A stretch of 64,000 bases of DNA from an uncultured Candidatus Saccharibacteria bacterium (GTDB lineage Bacteria > Patescibacteriota > Saccharimonadia > Saccharimonadales > Saccharimonadaceae), in NCBI GenBank assembly GCA_964444615.1, contig CAYUHY010000002.1, forward strand, positions 4,469-68,468. The letters are read 5' to 3'. Shown here in pieces: positions 6,471 through 55,925 of this stretch (the first letter of the stretch is position 1; every line of letters starts with the position of its first letter). A program made the position numbers and the translations under genes. A model generated the notes under the pieces. It had not been told where the DNA came from and searched no databases. It was given only the letters and a program-made list of their open reading frames with translations.

Positions 6471-7651
6471 TATTGTTTTGCCTTCTTTTTACTCGCTCGC
6501 GTAGATTGTTTCGCCGACTGGCGACCCGAGGGCTTTGCCTGACTAGCGCGCGCGGTTTTATTGGCTACTTTGGTAGCTTTTTTGCGAGCTTGATTGACTT
6601 TTTTGGCATTACGTTTGCGCTTGATACTGCGTTTCATTTTTTCAAATTGGCTGATTTTAGGTACCGACGCACTTGAAATCACCTCCCGATAGCGGCCGGT
6701 ATCCAAGTTGGCTTTTTCGTACTCCACACCTTTGAGATTTGCTACCACGCCATCGGTAGTTTTACGATTAGCACCCACCACACCGAGAGCGGCGGATTGC
6801 TTAGCAATATCAGCTCCACTAGGACCGGCGGCTTTTTTGAACGCCATCGAGGCGGACATTTCCGCAGGATTTGGCAACACCGGCTCAGCAGCTTTGCGCA
6901 GCGACATAGAAGCAGAGCGCTCAGCCGCTTGAGTTACTTCTGGCTTAGGTCTGACTTCAGGTGGTTTGCGATAAGCTCGCCAAATCGCTTTGGCCAGCTC
7001 CGTAGGATGAGAAATATATGGGGCATGAGACCAACCACGATGAATCTCTAGGGTACTATTGGGGATTTGTTCGTGCATAATTTTCGCTTGGTGGGGCGGT
7101 GTAATAGTGTCAGCCGCACCCCAAATAATCGAGGTAGGCGTAGTGACCTTACCCAGAATTAAACGTTTATCGCTATCAAGCATATTGGTAAGGGTCTGCT
7201 TCATATTCTCCGGAGCGCGCGCATAATCACTGGCGCCGGTAATTTTATGCCAAATCTTAGCCAGACCGGGGATTTTCTTCAAAAAACCAAACTTTTTTGA
7301 TAGCGTACGGGAAACATCGCGCTTGCCAGAATTTTCGTAGACTCCAGCCGCATCGAGCAGGATCAGATGTTTGAGCTTCTGGGGCTTTTCGGCACAGAGA
7401 TTCAAGAGGATACGGCCACCATTGCTATGCCCCAAAGCTACTGCGCCATCAGGTATATTTTGATCAGCCCATTTGACATATTCTTCTATAGTCCAGACCT
7501 TGCGAGATGGCGTGGTCAGACCGGGTACATGCAGCATTTCCACTTTGAGACCCTGCTTTTCTAGTAGCACCAGTGTCTTTTCCCATGGTGCCACGGTGTA
7601 AGTCCAACCATGGATAATATATAATATTGGCTTTTTCACGTTAATCCCCAT
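6470..7651 (-). CDS. Alpha/beta-fold hydrolase with ~170-aa Lys/Ala/Ser-rich C-terminal tail
   Basis: 393 aa. It has a GHSNGG nucleophile elbow (GxSxG) and a downstream HAPY His. The tail is low complexity. Confidence 0.6.
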   Translation of the reverse strand: MGINVKKPILYIIHGWTYTVAPWEKTLVLLEKQGLKVEMLHVPGLTTPSRKVWTIEEYVKWADQNIPDGAVALGHSNGGRILLNLCAEKPQKLKHLILLDAAGVYENSGKRDVSRTLSKKFGFLKKIPGLAKIWHKITGASDYARAPENMKQTLTNMLDSDKRLILGKVTTPTSIIWGAADTITPPHQAKIMHEQIPNSTLEIHRGWSHAPYISHPTELAKAIWRAYRKPPEVRPKPEVTQAAERSASMSLRKAAEPVLPNPAEMSASMAFKKAAGPSGADIAKQSAALGVVGANRKTTDGVVANLKGVEYEKANLDTGRYREVISSASVPKISQFEKMKRSIKRKRNAKKVNQARKKATKVANKTARASQAKPSGRQSAKQSTRASKKKAKQ

Positions 7652-50111: not shown

Positions 50112-50374
50112 CTGATAGAGCGCCTAAAAATTTGACTTATTTACTGAAGTTTGTTATGATGGAGACATATGAGTTTAGTTGTTGTCTTCGACGTAGTCGA
50201 GGACAACTTTTATTTTGCGAACGGTTTTGGTAGCATGTACCTCTTCCGTCTGTTCAATAATTACTCTGCCCATATGAGCTCCTTTCAAACTAGTTTTTAA
50301 CTACTAGATTAAGGTTTTTTGATATTAAATATCGACCTTGAATATAGTTACAGTCAATTCTAGGCGCTCTATAG
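50112..50374. repeat. ~260-bp segment bounded by an imperfect ~22-bp inverted repeat (MITE-like or long-range RNA stem)
   Basis: Left arm CTGATAGAGCGCCTAAAAATTTGAC (50112-50136). Right arm GTCAATTCTAGGCGCTCTATAG (50353-50374). The perfect 12-bp core is ATAGAGCGCCTA. Confidence 0.5.
50175..50273 (-). CDS. Candidate 32-aa hydrophilic peptide (MGRVIIEQTEEVHATKTVRKIKVVLDYVEDNN)
   Basis: AAAGGAG RBS lies 5-6 nt before ATG 50273. It is below the ORF-track size cutoff and sits inside the inverted-repeat-bounded segment. Confidence 0.35.
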   Translation of the reverse strand: MGRVIIEQTEEVHATKTVRKIKVVLDYVEDNN

Positions 50375-50375
50375 T

Positions 50376-50402
50376 AAAAGTAGCACAAAAGTGCTACTTT
50401 TA
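50376..50402 (-). terminator. Bidirectional hairpin terminator downstream of the DGR target gene
   Basis: AAAAGTAGCAC-TTTT-GTGCTACTTTT: perfect 8-bp stem flanked by A and T runs. Confidence 0.55.
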
Positions 50403-50535
50403 CCAAGCATAGGCATGATGTTTTTTGTAATTTTCTTTTATTTCAGCTAAAACGTGGTGATTTACGAATGGCAAGGGGCGTAGCGACGGCTTCTCGACAG
50501 ACGTGGTTTTGATGGTACTAATTAATAAAAAGCAA

Positions 50536-50643
50536 GGCGCCAATGAGTTTCTCAACAGACCCGGCTAGCTAGATATTTAGGTATACTTATATTTATAGAC
50601 TAGCTAGACGGTTCTTTTAGTCTGTTTCAAAACTATTGGCGCC
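50536..50643. repeat. Long nested imperfect palindrome just 3' of VR1
   Basis: Three concentric arm pairs: GGCGCCAAT/ATTGGCGCC, AACAGAC/GTCTGTT and CTAGCTAG/CTAGCTAG. It lies 52-160 nt beyond the target gene stop. Confidence 0.7.
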
Positions 50644-50694: not shown

Positions 50695-53001
50695 TTAGGA
50701 ATCGCGGGCGATACACCGCACAGCGTATCCGCGGTAACGGCTGCTGCCGACTGTACCAGGGCCGACGCCGCCACTGAGTATGTACAGGTGGTATGCGTAG
50801 TCAGCATTGTACGCCGTACTAGACCACCAGTATCCGTCGCTAGTACCGTAGCCGAGGGAGCCATCGAGGACGTACCCGGTATACTTGAAATTGTAAATGA
50901 CTTTACTATTAGAATCTGTTGCATTCTGAACAATATTTAGATCTCCTGAACCCCAGTTGGTGTATTCATTAAGACCTGGTTTGAGGCTGGTGTTACTAAT
51001 GGTAAGACCCATATTACGGAATAACTTATAATAATCAGACCAGGTATTCTCTGTATTTACATTACTTTGGCGACCACCAGTAGGCAATTTCCAACCTTTA
51101 GGACAGATAGAAGAAGGAGCTTGACTATTAGCGGCTATGGCGTTTGATGAATCTGTGCCTCCAGTACCAGCTGTAGCAGCGTTCCAAGAATAATAACCAG
51201 TTTCTCCAGCATTAGAACTAGAAGCTATATAAGATTGTACAGCATAATACCCTTTGTCTGCTGAGAAGTCTCTATTTCCGGAAGAAGTATTAAGTGAAGT
51301 GAGGGTATTGGTTGGTTTTACGACAGTGCTTAGGGAACTTTGATTCCAGTCGGCACCTTGGTTGAGGTCAGTATCATCCTTACTTAGGCCAGCGGTGGTG
51401 AGTTTGAGTTTGAGGTTACTTGTCATCCAGCATCTACCGTCTCCAAGTTTTCTTACAGTATAAGATTTTCCATCTCTCGTGTCCTGGAGAGTATATTCGG
51501 CACTATATTTTTGGCCAGAGATAAAGGGAGTTTTCTCGCAGACGCGGGGAGTCATTTCTTGCATGGTGGTAATCTCAGAAAGATCAGGATCCCGCATCAC
51601 GCACCGCACAGCGTAACCGACGTAACGGGCGCCGCTGACTGTACCAGGGTCGACGTAGCTACTGATTACGCGCAGGTTGTACGCGTAGCTAGCATCGTTC
51701 GCCGTACTAGACCACCAGTAGCCGCTGCTAGTACCGTCGAGGGAGCCATCGTAGACGTGTCCGGTATATTTAAAGTTGTAAGGAGTAGCTTGGATCTTGG
51801 TAGAGCCGGCAGTATCACTGGTAATTGATGCAGTAGTGGCAAAGGCTTCATATTCTCCACTACTACTACCGGATGGTAGTTTCCAGCCTTTTGGGCAAAT
51901 GGAAGACGGAGCTTGACTGTTGGTAGCTATCACATCTGAATGGCTTGTACCACCAGTACCAGCTGTAGCGGCATTCCAAGAGTAGTAACCGGTTTCTCCT
52001 GCGCTAGAACTAGATACTATGTAGGATTCTACTTTATATGGAATTCCGTTAAAGGTTCCATCGCCACTGGAGACAGAAGTGAATGTATTGGTAGGTTTTA
52101 CGACGGTACTTGGAGAACTTTGGTTCCAGTCCAAGCCTTGGTTAAGGTCGGTGTCATCTTTACTGAGGCCGGCAGTGGTGAGTTTGAGCTTAAGGTTGTC
52201 GGTCATCCAGCATTTACCATCGGCAAACTTTCTAATATTATAGACGTTATCGTCGCGGGAATCTTTGAGCGGGTAGGCATCACTGTAAGTTTGATTAGTA
52301 AGATATGGGGTTTCTTCACAATATTCGGGGTGAGTAGCTAAATCTTGCATGGTGTTAGCTTTTTCTAGGCCAATAAGTTTTCTGGGTGTGGCGACCATGC
52401 TGAGTTGTACGCCAGTTTTGTAATGTCCAGAATTGTTGTTATTCTCGGCAAACTTGGCGGCAAAAACGATGCGTTTAGTAGTAGAATCTAAGGTATTATT
52501 AGCACTTTCTGGTAAAGTTACATTTTCTAATCTTCCAGTGCTCAAACCACTACCGTTAGTACCATAAGTTGGTACAGTATAATAAGTAAGTCCAGCATTA
52601 GTAGTGTCATTATTAGTAGTATTATTAGTCCAGGCAAAACCCCAAGAGTTATTTGCTAAATTAGATCCACTTGTGCCATTAGCTCCTGTTAATGTAGTAG
52701 TACCTCCATCTAACTTCAGACTACTATATCCATTAGCATATGATACTTGTAATGTATAACTATCTATATCGCTAGCAGAATAAGTAACATTACTACTAAG
52801 ATATGCAGTATCGCCAGGCGCTACGGTAGCAGAAAGAGTAGGGTTGCTGACACTGAGTGAAGCGGTAGGACTGATAGCAGCGTAACATTTATTACCGAGT
52901 AACGAAAAGAACAAGGTGCAGATGCTACACAATGGGACAACAAGTCTTAAATATCGATAGCGCGATATACTTAAGAATTTATATTGATAATTGTGTAGCA
53001 T
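50695..53001 (-). CDS. Secreted surface protein with two tandem FISUMP (Fibrobacter succinogenes major paralogous)/C-type-lectin-like domains; DGR target
   Basis: 768 aa. AAAGGAGGG RBS and signal-like N-terminus. Each repeat has CWMT(D/S)NLKLKL ... ICPKGWKLP ... GYWWSST ... GYAVRC(V/I). The two repeats are clearly paralogous. Confidence 0.8.
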   Translation of the reverse strand: MLHNYQYKFLSISRYRYLRLVVPLCSICTLFFSLLGNKCYAAISPTASLSVSNPTLSATVAPGDTAYLSSNVTYSASDIDSYTLQVSYANGYSSLKLDGGTTTLTGANGTSGSNLANNSWGFAWTNNTTNNDTTNAGLTYYTVPTYGTNGSGLSTGRLENVTLPESANNTLDSTTKRIVFAAKFAENNNNSGHYKTGVQLSMVATPRKLIGLEKANTMQDLATHPEYCEETPYLTNQTYSDAYPLKDSRDDNVYNIRKFADGKCWMTDNLKLKLTTAGLSKDDTDLNQGLDWNQSSPSTVVKPTNTFTSVSSGDGTFNGIPYKVESYIVSSSSAGETGYYSWNAATAGTGGTSHSDVIATNSQAPSSICPKGWKLPSGSSSGEYEAFATTASITSDTAGSTKIQATPYNFKYTGHVYDGSLDGTSSGYWWSSTANDASYAYNLRVISSYVDPGTVSGARYVGYAVRCVMRDPDLSEITTMQEMTPRVCEKTPFISGQKYSAEYTLQDTRDGKSYTVRKLGDGRCWMTSNLKLKLTTAGLSKDDTDLNQGADWNQSSLSTVVKPTNTLTSLNTSSGNRDFSADKGYYAVQSYIASSSNAGETGYYSWNAATAGTGGTDSSNAIAANSQAPSSICPKGWKLPTGGRQSNVNTENTWSDYYKLFRNMGLTISNTSLKPGLNEYTNWGSGDLNIVQNATDSNSKVIYNFKYTGYVLDGSLGYGTSDGYWWSSTAYNADYAYHLYILSGGVGPGTVGSSRYRGYAVRCIARDS
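50705..50884 (-). repeat. DGR variable repeat VR1 (C-terminal 60 codons of the target)
   Basis: Ungapped 180-bp match to 53462-53641. By hand count there are ~30 mismatches, ~23 of them at template A (coding strand). Confidence 0.75.
51602..51768 (-). repeat. DGR variable repeat VR2 (end of the first FISUMP domain)
   Basis: Match to the same template. By hand count there are ~26 mismatches plus one 3-nt indel, ~20 of them at template A. Confidence 0.7.
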
Positions 53002-53028
53002 CGAGCCCTCCTTTTGTAGGTTTTTTGA

Positions 53029-53084
53029 GATCTTCGCCCTAAGTAATCTAAAAATCCACTAAAAGATTACTAGGGCGGAAGATC
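53029..53084 (-). promoter_or_regulatory. ~20-bp stem hairpin in the 5' UTR of the DGR target gene
   Basis: On the - strand: GATCTTCCGCCCTAGTAATCT - loop containing GTGGAT - AGATTACTTAGGGCGAAGATC. It lies ~27 nt upstream of the ATG. Confidence 0.6.
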
Positions 53085-53230
53085 ATTTTGTATATATACC
53101 GGGGTATCATTCTTGTATGTAAGTAAAATATCATAAATACACATCAGCGGAGATTGTATAATATGGTATTTTTTGTATAAGTAATCGAGGAGTTTCTCTA
53201 TAGTAGATAGACAACTACTCCAAATACAAA

Positions 53231-53373
53231 AATGGCACCACTAGGGTGCACAATAAACTAATCGGACGAGACTATACTCAACAGATGGCTTATTCCCCTT
53301 GCGGTGCCATTTATACTGTTCAATATAGTAGTCCAGGCGATGTCTTGTCTTTATTAACTAATTTATTGTGCAC
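53231..53373 (-). other. Interleaved inverted repeats (pseudoknot-capable or alternative pairing) followed by a U-run, 3' of the TR
   Basis: On the - strand the order is A (53356-53373), B (53301-53311), A' (53246-53263), B' (53231-53241). A/A' is 17 bp with one mismatch. B/B' is AATGGCACCGC/GTGGTGCCATT. TTTTTGTATTT follows B'. Confidence 0.5.
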
Positions 53374-53461
53374 TCTTATTATATCACAAATTTAGGCTTG
53401 GCTAGATAAAAAATATTGATAAGTTTTGCACAGGTAGAAAAGAAAAATCTAGAATCGGAAC

Positions 53462-53641
53462 CGGGCGATACACCGCACAGCGAATCCGTTGTAACGGTTG
53501 TTGTTGTTTGTACCAGGGCGGACGTTGCTACTGTTTATGTTCAGGTTGTATGCGTTGTTAGCATCGTTCGCCGTACTAGACCACCAGTAGCCGTTGCTAG
53601 TACCATTGTTGAGGGAGCCATCGCCGACGTTCCCGGTATAC
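53462..53641 (-). repeat. DGR template repeat (TR), non-coding
   Basis: The - strand reads YTGNVGDGSLNNGTSNGYWWSSTANDANNAYNLNINSSNVRPGTNNNNRYNGFAVRCIAR, with ~15 AAC codons. There is an in-frame TAG 13 codons upstream with no start codon between, and a TAG 4 codons after. Confidence 0.75.
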
Positions 53642-53835
53642 GCACAACAGTGCCTAGTAGGAAACAGAAACTCCTATTCCTGAGCAAGGCCGTAGCCCAG
53701 CTTCATGCTAACCTGACTCGGCTTCGAGAATTGCCGGCACAGGGGAGTTTCACGATTCTAGGAGTGGGGCACCGTGAGTTGCTGGAGCTTGACCTCAATT
53801 GCTTCCCTTGGAACCCATGAAGATTATGACTTCAC
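53642..53835 (-). ncRNA. G+C-rich ~190-nt non-coding leader transcribed into the TR (putative DGR RNA 5' segment)
   Basis: There is no ORF longer than 35 codons on the - strand. Composition is distinctly G+C-rich versus the flanks. It is contiguous with the TR and downstream of a TGTTATAAT -10. Confidence 0.4.
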
Positions 53836-53841
53836 AGTTTT

Positions 53842-53850
53842 ATTATAACA
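53842..53850 (-). promoter_or_regulatory. Extended -10 promoter (TGTTATAAT) for the TR transcript
   Basis: CATGTTATAAT on the - strand. The -35 region is weak. Confidence 0.45.
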
Positions 53851-54064: not shown

Positions 54065-54856
54065 TCACCCCTGTGAGCGAGGCTGAGAATTATGCTTCTC
54101 GAGAGCTTGATAGAGGCCTTCCCAAGCCCAGAGGCTGAGATCTTCGGCACGCACGTCGGGATCGATGCCCTCAGCGTCAAAGATTTGCAGCCATTGGTCG
54201 CGAGAAATGTGTTCGTCGGCCAGGACACGGGCGAGTTTCTTGCGCGGATTACTGAAACCACGGGCGGCAAGCTGGAGAGAGGCGGGATCTACCGCCGGCT
54301 CGGAAAGTGGAGTCAGGACTAAGACCTGGCTATCTACCTTCGGTGGCGGGGTGAATTCGGCGGCCTGGACGACTGGGCCGAGTTCGGCTTCGGCGAGGTT
54401 TTGGACCATGAGGGCGAGGAGATTATAATCCCCCTCGATAGCGACGATACGCCGAGCGACTTCTTTTTGCATGAGCAGAACGATCTTCTCGGGGCGGGGC
54501 GTGACGGCAAGCATACGACGCACGATGGGCGAGGTAATGTAGTAAGGGATATTACCGGCGACGACGTAAGGACGGTCGGCAACCAGCGGGGCAATCTCAG
54601 TAGTGAGAATATCGCCCTCGATGACACGGAGATTTTTGCCTGGAAACGAAGCTGGAAGCTTGCGGGCAAGGTCGTGATCGTATTCAACGGCAATGACTTC
54701 GGGAAAACGGCGCAAAAGGCTAGAGGTGAGGGTACCGAGACCGGGGCCAATTTCTAGGCATAAGTCTACATCTGGCACGACGGCGAGATCGGCAATTTGA
54801 TCGAGAATAGCACGATTCTGAAGCCAATGCTGGCCGAGAGATTTCTTGTTTTTCAT
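54065..54856 (-). CDS. rsmA: 16S rRNA (adenine1518/1519-N6)-dimethyltransferase
   Basis: KKSLGQHWLQNRAILDQI and SAM motif LEIGPGLGTLT. Start set at ATG 54856 (MKNKKSLGQHWL). The 71 upstream track codons overlap the preceding gene. Confidence 0.85.
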   Translation of the reverse strand: MKNKKSLGQHWLQNRAILDQIADLAVVPDVDLCLEIGPGLGTLTSSLLRRFPEVIAVEYDHDLARKLPASFPGKNLRVIEGDILTTEIAPLVADRPYVVAGNIPYYITSPIVRRMLAVTPRPEKIVLLMQKEVARRIVAIEGDYNLLALMVQNLAEAELGPVVQAAEFTPPPKVDSQVLVLTPLSEPAVDPASLQLAARGFSNPRKKLARVLADEHISRDQWLQIFDAEGIDPDVRAEDLSLWAWEGLYQALEKHNSQPRSQG

Positions 54857-54878
54857 GCGAGGTGGTGATTTCCCATGA

Positions 54879-55925
54879 TTAGTACCAACCGCGCTCGAGC
54901 TTAAAGGCGAGGGCGCCTTGCCAGCCGCCATAGCGACCGCGCACATAAGAATCCATCCAACGGAGCTGAGTAACGGGGTTGGTCTGCCAGTCGGCACCGG
55001 CACTAGCCATCTTGGAGCCCGGCAGAGCCTGCGGAATACCATAAGCGCCACTGGAAGAATTCTGAGCATCGACGCGACAGCCTGATTCGTGATAAATAAT
55101 ATAGAGCGCAGCCTCTAGGTCAGCATCGGTGATACCGGCTTCGCGCGCCCAGCCGGCGCAAACTTCTTGATTGGGCGCAATGGAGGGGCGAGCACCCTCG
55201 ACAACGATCTCAGGGACGGCTTCGACGAGGATTTTTTCTTCGATAAGCTCGCGCGAAACTTCGACATTATTCTCAAATTCGACTTCGTAGACACTAATGC
55301 GGCGGCCCTCTTCCCCGGGCTGCTCTAAAACACGCTCACCCTTAGGGCGATTGTAATCGTAACGCACCTCGACTTCGTAAGGCAGAGCTTCTTCGATAGT
55401 GAGGCGGCGACCGCCGTTGCGCTGAATGCGATAGGTGGAGACGGCGCCGGCTTCAAGGAAATTATTATTAAACTCGGTCATAACTTCGTCGTCATCGTAG
55501 ACGGTGAGGCCGGCCTCGACAGCGATCTGCTTGGGGTCGTAGCTGGCGGTCATGACGTATTTGCGCTGGACACCATCGATGACCAGAGCCGGGCGAGCAC
55601 GGTAAATATTAATGCTAAAATTACCATCTACAACCGTATCGAGACTAGGCTCGACGATGTCGGTCTCGGCTAAGATAATGTCGGATTTGGCAAGGACTTC
55701 GCGGACGCTGGCAGAGCCGGTCTTGACTACGAGGTTTTTGCCGTCGTCGTGGATGGTGACGAAATATTCGTCATTTTCTGACTGGGGGAGGATGAGATCG
55801 CCGTTTTCGTCTTCAGCGTAAACAGGGGCGGGGCGATAAAAAGCGAGCAACGACAAAAAGGCCGTAAGCACCATCAAGAGGGCGGCTGCATATAAATTAC
55901 GCTTTTGGAAATGCAATTTCATCAT
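54879..55925 (-). CDS. Secreted DUF348/G5-domain cell-wall hydrolase with C-terminal lytic-transglycosylase-like domain (RpfB/YabE-like architecture)
   Basis: Signal/TM N-terminus and repeated beta-rich modules. C-terminus has YIIYHESGCRVDAQNSSSGAYGIPQALPGSKM. ATG lies 9 nt after TGTGTTATAAT (55935-55946). Confidence 0.6.
   Translation of the reverse strand: MMKLHFQKRNLYAAALLMVLTAFLSLLAFYRPAPVYAEDENGDLILPQSENDEYFVTIHDDGKNLVVKTGSASVREVLAKSDIILAETDIVEPSLDTVVDGNFSINIYRARPALVIDGVQRKYVMTASYDPKQIAVEAGLTVYDDDEVMTEFNNNFLEAGAVSTYRIQRNGGRRLTIEEALPYEVEVRYDYNRPKGERVLEQPGEEGRRISVYEVEFENNVEVSRELIEEKILVEAVPEIVVEGARPSIAPNQEVCAGWAREAGITDADLEAALYIIYHESGCRVDAQNSSSGAYGIPQALPGSKMASAGADWQTNPVTQLRWMDSYVRGRYGGWQGALAFKLERGWY

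What the first reader, a model, noticed from the sequence alone, without database searches (positions are those of the whole stretch)
50705..53641. DGR-type template repeat with adenine-biased mismatches to two regions of a surface lectin-like protein
A 180-bp segment (53462-53641) aligns without gaps to the last 60 codons of the 768-aa FISUMP/C-type-lectin-like protein (50705-50884).
- By my hand count there are ~30 mismatches, and ~23 fall where the upstream copy has A on the coding (-) strand.
- The upstream copy is rich in AAC codons (~15). That is the codon DGR templates use so that A-mutagenesis samples many residues without creating stops.
- It is not translatable: an in-frame TAG lies 13 codons upstream with no start codon between.
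- The conserved scaffold (GYWWSST, RCIAR) is invariant. The variable positions map between those anchors, as in CLec-fold DGR targets.
- Both copies share GCTGTGCGGTGTATCGCCCG at the 3' end and then diverge (IMH versus IMH*-like).
- About 7 non-A mismatches exist, two of them shared by both VRs. The element may therefore be old, decaying, or have a drifted TR.
Basis: partly seen in the sequence, partly recalled or inferred. Interest (0 to 1): 0.9.

Follow-up and report, generated by a model that had tools for sequence, protein, structure and literature searches.

The report
DGR template beside target, no RT
This is a real diversity-generating-retroelement template RNA gene next to a surface-protein gene that it has rewritten at two sites, in a Saccharibacteria genome. 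It is ordinary in kind, but no reverse transcriptase lies nearby and there is no sign of recent activity.

Summary
The 180-nt segment 53641-53462 (- strand) aligns without gaps to the last 60 codons of the 768-aa FISUMP protein. It has 30 mismatches, 23 of them at template adenines (p=3e-9). With one 3-nt gap it also aligns to a second internal region, with 21 of 28 mismatches at adenines. It carries 15 AAC codons and is not translatable.

This is a DGR template repeat (TR) with two independently diversified variable regions (VRs). The TR sits in a self-contained RNA gene: a conserved -10 box, a ~190-nt structured leader with strong covariation, and a 9-bp helix pairing the leader with the sequence just 3' of the TR. 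Homologous cassettes in related Saccharibacteria sit next to a DGR reverse transcriptase and show only adenine mismatches (63/63).

The window holds no reverse transcriptase or accessory gene (at least 53 kb on one side, 10 kb on the other). Its TR/VR pairs carry 14 non-adenine differences. The TR has lost adenines at three variable codons without either VR being overwritten. So this is an RT-unlinked locus that must be served in trans, and it is quiescent or decaying. The kind is known and the architecture is a modest variant; interest is moderate.

The parts
53842..53850 (-). TGTTATAAT extended -10 promoter-like box of the TR cassette
   Evidence: A -10 box at the same distance from the leader occurs in all homologous cassettes. 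The generic sigma-70 scan did not call it because there is no -35 box. Its function is inferred.
53642..53835 (-). ~190-nt structured 5' leader of the DGR template RNA. Elements: hairpin P1 53834-53818; invariant core GAGGTCAAGCTCC 53796-53784; H5a 53761-53753; H6a 53751-53744 pairing with H6b 53674-53667.
   Evidence: The leader is homologous to sequence beside the TR in L015, L043, L046/47, L050 and L053. On the 7-sequence alignment of window, L015, L043, L032, L050, L031 and L047 (L053 not included), the 53 tested pairs are 94.4% paired, against 37-46% when partners are slid, and 27 pairs show compensatory changes. The window copy keeps 43 of 48 pairs.
53462..53641 (-). Template repeat (TR): 180 nt, 52 adenines, 15 AAC codons, not translatable
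53436..53457 (-). 3' tail. CGATTCTAG (53457-53449) pairs with leader CTAGAATCG (53761-53753) and is followed by a T-rich run.
   Evidence: Complementarity is perfect in the window. Four pairs covary across five cassettes on the alignment. L053 adds a sixth variant, TTAGAATCG/CGATTCTAA.
50695..53001 (-). Target gene, 768 aa: N-terminal hydrophobic segment, beta-sandwich domain, then two FISUMP (Fib_succ_major) domains each ending in a VR
   Evidence: Pfam PF09603 (E=4e-16, 2 stretches) and TIGR02145 (E=6e-25). AlphaFold model has pLDDT 86.9. Homologues come from Saccharibacteria.
51602..51769 (-). VR1, at the end of the first FISUMP domain (aa ~412-467)
   Evidence: 21 adenine and 7 non-adenine mismatches to the TR, plus one codon deleted. 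Diversified independently of VR2.
50705..50884 (-). VR2, the last 60 codons of the target (aa 707-766)
   Evidence: 23 adenine and 7 non-adenine mismatches, ungapped
50536..50643 (-). Long imperfect hairpin ~60 nt after VR2, followed by a T-run. Probably the target gene's terminator; any role as a DGR target-site hairpin is untested.
   Evidence: z=-4.9. No counterpart follows VR1.

Best explanation
The segment is the template repeat of a diversity-generating retroelement. It is embedded in a free-standing template-RNA gene made of four parts: its own -10 box, a ~190-nt structured leader, the TR, and a short tail.

Shown:
- The TR and two regions of the adjacent FISUMP surface-protein gene differ almost only at template adenines.
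- The two regions were diversified independently of each other.
- The leader is a conserved, covarying structure.
- One strand of the leader pairs with the 9 nt just 3' of the TR (H5), and the next strand pairs with a segment ~25 nt 5' of the TR (H6). The TR is thus looped out between two adjacent helices.

Inferred:
- This is the same topology as the Bordetella phage DGR RNA, where a template:primer duplex and a 'cPRT Stop' duplex bracket the TR. Here the long structured domain lies 5' of the TR rather than 3' of it.
- A clade-specific reverse transcriptase, together with a conserved 308-351-aa partner protein, binds this RNA. It primes near the H5/H6 junction and copies the TR with random incorporation opposite adenines.
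- The cDNA then replaces VR1 or VR2 by homology at the GC-rich 3' end, GCTGTGCGGTG(TATCGCCCG).

Neither enzyme gene is in the window, so homing here must be served in trans from elsewhere in the genome. The 14 non-adenine differences, and three TR codons that lost their adenines without either VR being overwritten, show that neither VR has been rewritten for a long time. The locus is quiescent at best. My estimate is about 45% still functional in trans and about 40% a relic after loss of the reverse transcriptase. The confidence given is for the DGR template-target identity and RT-unlinked architecture, not for current activity.
For: - Adenine bias: p=2.7e-9 for VR2 and 3.9e-8 for VR1. 15 AAC codons.
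- Independence of the two VRs: 17 adenine sites changed in only one VR, and 6 changed to different bases.
- Homologous cassettes beside DGR-type RTs (IGNLTSQ...YVDD motifs) have 24/24, 17/17 and 22/22 adenine-only mismatches. L043 is syntenic with the window across UvrD-G5-ksgA.
- Leader covariation: 94.4% of cells paired, 27 compensatory pairs. The bracketing helix covaries in six variants.
- The window leader is as intact as that of the adenine-only, RT-linked L043 (43/48 versus 43/50 pairs).
- No RT in the window: motif scan and tblastn with two clade RTs and two accessory proteins.
- None of the top 120 clade RT homologues lies on a 69,094-bp contig, which is the length of the window's source contig.
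- A nearly identical cassette occurs both beside an RT (L046/47) and away from any RT (L031/L032) in another lineage.
- Homologues are hypervariable at TR-adenine codons: entropy 1.57 and 1.75 bits, against 0.47 and 0.52 at other codons.
- The BPP-1 RNA topology comes from Handa et al., bioRxiv 10.1101/2023.10.23.563531.
Against: - No reverse transcriptase is demonstrated for this genome.
- 14 of 247 non-adenine comparisons differ, against 0 of 391 in three RT-linked relatives (p=1e-6).
- VR1 carries a 3-nt deletion and a shorter 3' homology.
- TR changes at 53520 and 53483, close to the 3' end where cDNA integration starts, were not copied into either VR.
- The promoter, the priming site and the permuted-topology analogy are inferences. 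No expression or cDNA data exist.
- The CLec fold of the VR domain was not recovered by structure search: best PDB E=2.2, and only FISUMP phage proteins in BFVD.
Confidence: 0.85

Rival explanations
1. Relic DGR. The reverse transcriptase and its partner gene were lost from this genome, or were never co-inherited with this locus. The TR cassette and the two VRs are fossils of past diversification that are now drifting.
For: - No RT or accessory gene in 64 kb.
- 14 non-adenine mismatches, against 0/391 in RT-linked relatives.
- The TR lost adenines at three codons and neither VR was overwritten.
- VR1 has a codon deletion.
- In the syntenic relative L043 the RT sits just beyond the target gene, whereas in the window MetRS lies in that position.
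Against: - TR-lineage changes are confined to formerly variable codons: 5 of 5, and none at never-adenine sites (binomial p=0.003). This is not expected of neutral decay.
- Leader helices, the bracketing helix and the -10 box are intact.
- The target ORF and both VRs are intact and free of stops.
- Non-A substitutions (up to 11 per target gene) and 3-nt indels are reported for DGRs curated as putatively functional, and multiple non-A substitutions are frequent in the CPR set (Wu 2018).
Confidence: 0.4
2. Second-copy TR. The genome has a canonical RT-linked TR cassette elsewhere that still carries AAC at the three drifted codons. That copy, not the one in the window, wrote VR1 and VR2. The window cassette is a duplicated, diverging copy.
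For: - Both VRs share G at 53520 and A at 53483, against the local TR.
- Related TRs have AAC or TAC at those positions.
- In another lineage, near-identical cassettes exist in an RT-linked context (L046/47) and an RT-unlinked one (L031), which shows that cassettes duplicate or move.
- Cassette position relative to the RT varies between relatives.
Against: - No second TR-like sequence exists in the window.
- At the single-VR mismatches 53590, 53565 and 53632 the other VR agrees with the local TR; 53605 falls in VR1's deleted codon and is uninformative. The local TR is therefore close to the donor.
- This rival cannot be tested without the rest of the genome. The exact-pattern scan of species-representative genomes found nothing.
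Confidence: 0.15
3. Not a retroelement. The three copies are ordinary diverged repeats of a FISUMP domain end, one of them a non-coding pseudogene fragment, and the adenine bias is a compositional accident.
For: The three copies share only 82-83% identity, and there are some non-adenine differences.
Against: - Fisher p=3e-9 and 4e-8.
- 15 AAC codons in the untranslatable copy only.
- The copy lies inside a conserved structured RNA that in relatives sits beside a DGR RT with 63/63 adenine-only mismatches.
- TR-TR divergence between species spares adenines.
Confidence: 0.02

Closest known systems
Bordetella phage BPP-1 DGR (mtd VR - avd - TR - Sp - brt), including its DGR RNA architecture (Handa et al. 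2018, PMC6182149, listed; bioRxiv 10.1101/2023.10.23.563531)
   Same: - An untranslated TR rich in AAC codons.
- Adenine-specific TR/VR differences.
- The VR lies at the C-terminal end of a ligand-binding domain.
- A GC-rich shared 3' end.
- The TR is looped out between two adjacent helices formed with flanking RNA.
   Different: - No Avd. Relatives instead carry an unrelated 308-351-aa partner ORF.
- The long structured RNA domain is 5' of the TR, with its own promoter, instead of the 3' Sp.
- The RT is not adjacent here.
- One TR serves two VRs in a single gene.
- There is no hairpin directly after the VRs; the nearest is ~60 nt after VR2 and none follows VR1.
Category 'd' / CLec2 DGR targets (DUF1566 / DUF823 / Fib_succ_major), exemplified by the Legionella DGR target lipoprotein (Wu et al. 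2018, PMC5758913)
   Same: The VR overlaps a Fib_succ_major/FISUMP domain of a predicted surface protein.
   Different: Two tandem FISUMP domains are each diversified. The N-terminal domain is a beta-sandwich with weak TasA/pilin similarity. The host is a Saccharibacteria (CPR) bacterium.
CPR/Patescibacteria DGRs (the 'CPR set' of Wu et al. 2018; DGR clade 2 of Roux et al. 2021, PMC8144416)
   Same: The host phylum matches. Multiple non-A-to-N substitutions are reported as frequent in the CPR set, and in-frame (multiple-of-3) indels are known among DGRs.
   Different: 90% of the CPR set has architecture B3, a subtype of the avd-TR-RT architecture family. This clade shows no Avd, and the TR position is variable. 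RT-anchored pipelines require a repeat within 1 kb of the RT and would miss this locus.
Incomplete DGR loci and trans-acting DGR components in Thiohalocapsa PB-PSB1 (PNAS 2024, PMC10907252), and remote targets of the Treponema DGR
   Same: These are loci lacking the RT whose targets were apparently diversified by components encoded elsewhere.
   Different: Here the locus keeps its own complete template-RNA gene. What would have to act in trans is the enzyme, not the template.

Membership tests
Diversity-generating retroelement (complete cassette) | A DGR-type reverse transcriptase gene in the locus | tested here: not met
   No RT motifs in the six-frame translation. tblastn with clade RTs from L015 and L043 gives only chance hits. 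No clade RT lies on a contig of the source contig's length.
Diversity-generating retroelement (complete cassette) | A TR/VR repeat pair whose differences are concentrated at TR adenines | tested here: met
   23/30 and 21/28 mismatches at adenines; p=2.7e-9 and 3.9e-8
Diversity-generating retroelement (complete cassette) | The TR is non-coding or invariant, and the VR lies inside an intact ORF, typically at the C-terminal end of a domain | tested here: met
   The TR frame is closed on both sides. VR1 and VR2 end the two FISUMP domains of an intact 768-aa ORF.
Diversity-generating retroelement (complete cassette) | Fidelity at non-adenine positions (few or no non-A-to-N differences) | tested here: inconclusive
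   7 non-A differences per VR, against 0 in three RT-linked relatives. This is within the published range of up to 11.
Diversity-generating retroelement (complete cassette) | An accessory gene (Avd, HRDC, MSL or CH1) next to the TR/RT | tested here: not met
   None in the window: the two clade accessory proteins gave only chance tblastn hits. Relatives carry an uncharacterised 308-351-aa ORF instead.
Diversity-generating retroelement (complete cassette) | Ongoing diversification (within-population variation confined to TR-adenine sites) | not testable with these tools
   No reads or strain-level relatives were available. Only between-species hypervariability at these codons could be shown.
DGR template RNA with TR bracketed by flanking duplexes (BPP-1 type) | Pairing between sequences upstream and downstream of the TR, supported by covariation | tested here: met
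   Helix 5 (leader 53761-53753 with tail 53457-53449) has 4 compensatory pairs. The adjacent helix 6 has 5 compensatory pairs.
DGR template RNA with TR bracketed by flanking duplexes (BPP-1 type) | An Avd-binding stem-loop and Sp domain located 3' of the TR; cis-priming from an Sp adenosine | tested here: not met
   The structured domain is 5' of the TR. After the 9-nt tail strand there is only a 13-nt T-rich run within the cassette. The priming site is not testable here.
CLec-fold DGR variable protein (CLec2 / Fib_succ_major class) | The VR lies within a Fib_succ_major/DUF1566-type domain | tested here: met
   PF09603 covers aa 522-764 and TIGR02145 covers aa 593-765. Classification follows Wu 2018.
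CLec-fold DGR variable protein (CLec2 / Fib_succ_major class) | Structural similarity to solved C-type-lectin-fold variable proteins | tested here: inconclusive
   The domain model has pLDDT 81.8. No significant PDB match (best E=2.2), and no PDB sequence match. BFVD matches only phage FISUMP proteins (E=1e-3).

The most novel reading that the evidence does not exclude
In this Saccharibacteria clade the DGR template is a free-standing, independently promoted RNA gene. Its fold is a circular permutation of the Bordetella-phage DGR RNA, with the enzyme-binding domain 5' of the TR. It can be placed anywhere in the genome, so that one RT plus a new non-Avd partner protein serves several dispersed template-target modules in trans. 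On this reading the window's locus is such a satellite module and is still functional.
Probability: 0.3. Interest if true: 0.55.

Novelty: new variant of a known kind. Interest (0 to 1): 0.4.

Why it matters
- DGRs are the only known natural system of targeted protein hypermutation in prokaryotes. They are thought to help the tiny, host-dependent CPR bacteria vary their surface adhesins.
- This locus adds a clean example of one template rewriting two domains of one adhesin-like protein.
- It shows that the template RNA is an autonomous, structured gene that can sit far from its enzyme. Surveys that start from the RT and look within 1 kb systematically miss such loci, so target repertoires in reduced genomes may be under-counted.
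- The covarying leader gives a concrete RNA model for an Avd-less DGR clade that could be tested in vitro.
- If the locus is instead a relic, it documents how a DGR module decays: adenines are lost from the TR first.

Tried and rejected
- An exact 21-nt TR/VR core scan of species-representative genomes found nothing.
- Exact-protein look-ups for the target, ksgA, P0001 and P0002 found no record. MetRS gave only a 1.9-kb Logan contig. The rest of the source genome could therefore not be reached.
- The cluster look-up gave no names or accessions.
- Rfam gave no hit in the window at gathering thresholds, and only a chance miRNA hit at E=5.6 around the TR.
- The leader-motif scan of metagenome contigs returned 22 loci. 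20 were chance hits in coding genes, and only L031 and L032 were real.
- The viral-contig scan gave one hit in an unrelated sequence context with no cassette features.
- L044 and L045 RT loci (63-66% RT identity) have no recognisable cassette after the RT.
- L054's contig ends 208 nt after the RT, so it is uninformative.
- The generic sigma-70 scan did not call the cassette promoter.
- The gene next to the cassette in L031 is a family member, but it is not a VR match to the closely related L032 TR; L031's own TR is cut off by the contig end. I do not claim that pair as a template-target module.
- The full-length structure search was dominated by the N-terminal beta-sandwich. The domain-only search did not recover a C-type-lectin fold.
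- I considered the hairpin after VR2 as a BPP-1-like target-site cruciform. I rate it as more likely a terminator, because it is ~60 nt away and VR1 has none.
Full report
**Observation**

I recomputed the alignments. On the minus strand, 53641-53462 aligns without gaps to 50884-50705, the last 60 codons of ORF 50695-53001 (768 aa).
- There are 150/180 identities. 23 of the 30 mismatches lie at adenines of the upstream copy, and 29 adenines and 121 other bases are unchanged (Fisher p=2.7e-9).
- The same segment aligns, with one codon missing, to 51769-51602 inside the gene. That alignment has 21 adenine and 7 non-adenine mismatches (p=3.9e-8).
- In the VR reading frame the upstream copy has 15 AAC and 1 AAT codons. 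It is closed by an in-frame TAG with no start codon after it.
- The two gene copies were written independently. 17 adenine sites changed in only one copy, 6 changed to different bases and 7 to the same base. Both show the same A>G>T>C spectrum and have no stop codons.
- As a control, TRs of different species differ mostly at non-adenine sites, for example 9 adenine versus 28 non-adenine differences. The adenine bias is therefore specific to the template-target relationship.

The one imprecision is that VR1 shares only GCTGTGCGGTG at its 3' end and encodes RCVMR, not RCIAR.

**What the gene and the organism are**

- The ORF matches Fib_succ_major/FISUMP twice (Pfam E=4e-16; TIGR02145 E=6e-25).
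- Wu et al. 2018 class VRs overlapping Fib_succ_major, DUF1566 or DUF823 as category d / CLec2, exemplified by the Legionella DGR.
- The AlphaFold model is confident (pLDDT 86.9). It shows an N-terminal beta-sandwich with weak TasA/pilin similarity, followed by two similar domains that each end in a VR.
- A domain-only model found no significant PDB neighbour and matched only phage FISUMP proteins in BFVD. I therefore rate the C-type-lectin fold as inconclusive by structure.
- Homologues and related loci all come from Candidatus Saccharibacteria MAGs.
- Across 11 homologues the residues encoded by TR-adenine codons are hypervariable: 1.57 and 1.75 bits, against 0.47 and 0.52 bits at other VR codons and 0.80 bits for the rest of the protein.

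**The reverse transcriptase is missing**

- ksgA lies upstream of the TR and MetRS lies downstream of the target.
- A six-frame motif scan found nothing in the 64-kb window. tblastn with two clade RTs and two accessory proteins also found nothing.
- The window's source contig is 69,094 bp long (P0001). None of the 120 best clade RT homologues sits on a contig of that length.
- The rest of the genome could not be reached.

**Relatives show the complete system**

| Locus | Mismatches at adenines | Layout |
|---|---|---|
| L015 | 24/24 | partner ORF-RT, then TR cassette; target convergent |
| L043 | 17/17 | partner ORF-RT, then TR cassette; target convergent; syntenic with the window (UvrD-G5-ksgA, 69-72% aa identity) |
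| L053 | 22/22 | target, then TR cassette, then partner ORF-RT |

- In every RT locus a 308-351-aa ORF overlaps the RT start. These ORFs are 44-66% identical to each other and have no Pfam, NCBIfam or PDB match. No Avd is present.
- In total these relatives show 63/63 adenine-only mismatches and 0/391 non-adenine differences. The window has 14/247 non-adenine differences (p=1e-6).

**The TR is part of a conserved RNA gene**

- The ~200 nt upstream of the window TR is homologous to the sequence beside the TR in the RT-linked relatives L015, L043, L046/47, L050 and L053. The homology includes a -10 box at a fixed distance (window TGTTATAAT, 53850-53842).
- I aligned seven cassettes (window, L015, L043, L032, L050, L031, L047). 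I took the leader helices from RNAalifold and added one long-range helix by hand.
- Of 53 pairs, 94.4% of cells form standard pairs, against 37-46% when the 3' partners are slid by 1-3 columns. 27 pairs show compensatory changes, and 0 of 500 shuffles reach the observed values.
- The long-range helix joins leader CTAGAATCG (53761-53753) to CGATTCTAG (53457-53449), which lies 4 nt after the TR. It covaries:

| Cassette | Leader strand | Tail strand |
|---|---|---|
| window | CTAGAATCG | CGATTCTAG |
| L043 | CTAGAATTG | CAATTCTAG |
| L015 | TAGGATCG | CGATCCTA |
| L032 (tail seen); L031, L046, L047 share the leader strand | TATAGGATTG | CAATCCTATA |
| L050 | TGCAGGATCG | CGATCCTGCA |
| L053 | TTAGAATCG | CGATTCTAA |

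- One nucleotide further on, GAAACTCC (53751-53744) pairs with GGAGTTTC (53674-53667), about 25 nt 5' of the TR.
- The TR is therefore looped out between two adjacent helices that share one continuous strand.
- The cryo-EM structure of the Bordetella phage DGR RNP shows the same topology. There a TR:Sp template-primer duplex sits next to the avd:Sp 'cPRT Stop' duplex, and similar duplexes were predicted in 207 of the 278 Avd-containing DGRs examined, including CPR ones.
- The difference is that here the large structured domain is 5' of the TR rather than 3'. That makes it effectively a circular permutation. This analogy and the implied priming site are my inference.
- The window's copy keeps 43 of 48 pairs, comparable with the adenine-only, RT-linked L043 (43/50).

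**The cassette moves**

- It lies downstream of the RT in L015, L043, L046/47 and L050. It lies upstream of the partner ORF and RT in L053. In the window it is away from any RT.
- In a second lineage the cassette of L031/L032 has no RT within 2.4 kb upstream or 10 kb downstream, where gatA, gatB, a helicase and fusA lie. The L031 copy is nearly identical to the RT-linked copy in L046/47.
- The gene beside the L031 cassette is not a VR match to the closely related L032 TR, so I do not count it as a target.
- Remote targets and incomplete, trans-served DGR loci are documented. TRs, however, are described as usually directly adjacent to the RT, and a major survey required a repeat within 1 kb of the RT.

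**Is the window's module alive?**

Against recent activity:
- There are seven non-adenine differences per VR.
- Three TR codons have drifted: GGC 53625-23, CGC 53520-18 and TTC 53484-82. In related TRs these are AAC/AAT, AAC, and AAC, TAC, ATG or TTT. They are hypervariable in homologues (2.85, 2.41 and 1.62 bits).
- Both VRs still carry diversified residues at these codons, including the two codons near the 3' end where integration begins.
- Neither VR has therefore been rewritten since the TR changed.
- The remaining non-adenine differences are single-VR point changes, two of them synonymous, plus one codon deletion in VR1.

For continued constraint:
- All TR-lineage changes fall in formerly variable codons and none at never-adenine sites (5/5, binomial p=0.003).
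- The leader, the bracketing helix, the -10 box, the target ORF and both VR frames are intact.
- Published putatively functional DGRs tolerate up to 11 non-A substitutions per target gene as well as 3-nt indels, and multiple non-A substitutions are frequent in the CPR set.

I cannot resolve this without the genome and reads. My split is about 45% functional but rarely used in trans, about 40% a relic after RT loss, and about 15% VRs written by another, RT-linked TR copy.

**Other local features**

- A 108-nt imperfect hairpin followed by a T-run lies ~60 nt after VR2 (z=-4.9). It is most simply the gene's terminator, and VR1 has no counterpart.
- Between the cassette and the target gene lies a separate promoter-hairpin-terminator unit (53386-53226). 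It has no Rfam match and no copies elsewhere, and it remains unexplained.

**Verdict**

The finding is real and the DGR interpretation is supported. It is a known kind of system in a phylum where DGRs are known. The variant features are three:
- the RT-unlinked, self-contained template-RNA gene;
- the 5'-placed structured domain;
- a possible new accessory protein in relatives.

Interest is 0.4. The most novel reading not excluded is dispersed, trans-served template modules with a permuted DGR RNA, to which I give a probability of about 0.3.

Noticed in passing
window 53226-53386 (- strand): A separate small unit lies between the TR cassette and the target gene. It has a TGATATAAT box, a long hairpin with an 18-bp outer stem (z=-3.4), and a terminator-like stem plus T-run. 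There is no Rfam match and no other copy in the window or in the fetched loci. It could be a small RNA or a 5'-UTR element; its function is unknown.
   Followed up: partly
L015 15535-16461 (-); L043 6442-7431; L050 733-1668; L053 1731-2684; L054 4982-6004; L044 9010-10008; L045 8953-10008; L046 4573-5511: Every RT of this Saccharibacteria DGR clade is preceded by a conserved 308-351-aa ORF that overlaps the RT start. These ORFs are 44-66% identical to each other and have no Pfam, NCBIfam or PDB match. No Avd is present. This is a candidate new DGR accessory protein.
   Followed up: partly
L031 1-290 and L032 150-575, compared with L046 6815-7134 and L047 3827-4141: A nearly identical template-RNA cassette occurs next to an RT in some contigs. 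In others it lies away from any RT, beside housekeeping genes (gatA, gatB, fusA). This suggests that the cassette duplicates or relocates as a unit.
   Followed up: partly
window 52375-52870 (target aa ~45-210): The N-terminal domain of the target is a confident beta-sandwich. It has weak structural similarity to TasA fibre and chaperone-usher pilin subunits (Foldseek E about 1e-3). This hints at a fibre- or adhesin-type surface protein.
   Followed up: partly
window 53625-53623, 53520-53518, 53484-53482: The TR lost adenines at three variable codons but shows no change at scaffold positions. This pattern is explained neither by neutral decay nor by an active element. It is recorded in the notebook as unexplained.
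   Followed up: partly
L046 ~7090-7134; L047-L049, L051, L052 contig ends: Contigs carrying the clade RT often stop inside or just before the TR, which points to assembly breaks at the TR/VR repeat. L046 ends in Illumina adapter sequence (AGATCGGAAGAGC).
   Followed up: no
window 54065-55069 and 54879-55925 (- strand): The ksgA ORF as listed mechanically overlaps the upstream G5/DUF348 gene by ~190 nt. Homology to the L043 KsgA starts at 54856, so the true start is probably downstream of the listed ATG.
   Followed up: partly
window 1-64000: No tRNA gene and no Rfam family at gathering threshold were found anywhere in the 64 kb.
   Followed up: no
window 50374-50403: A perfect 13-nt inverted repeat with a 4-nt loop (GTAAAAGTAGCAC/GTGCTACTTTTAC) lies in the intergenic region downstream of the target gene. 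It is probably a terminator.
   Followed up: no
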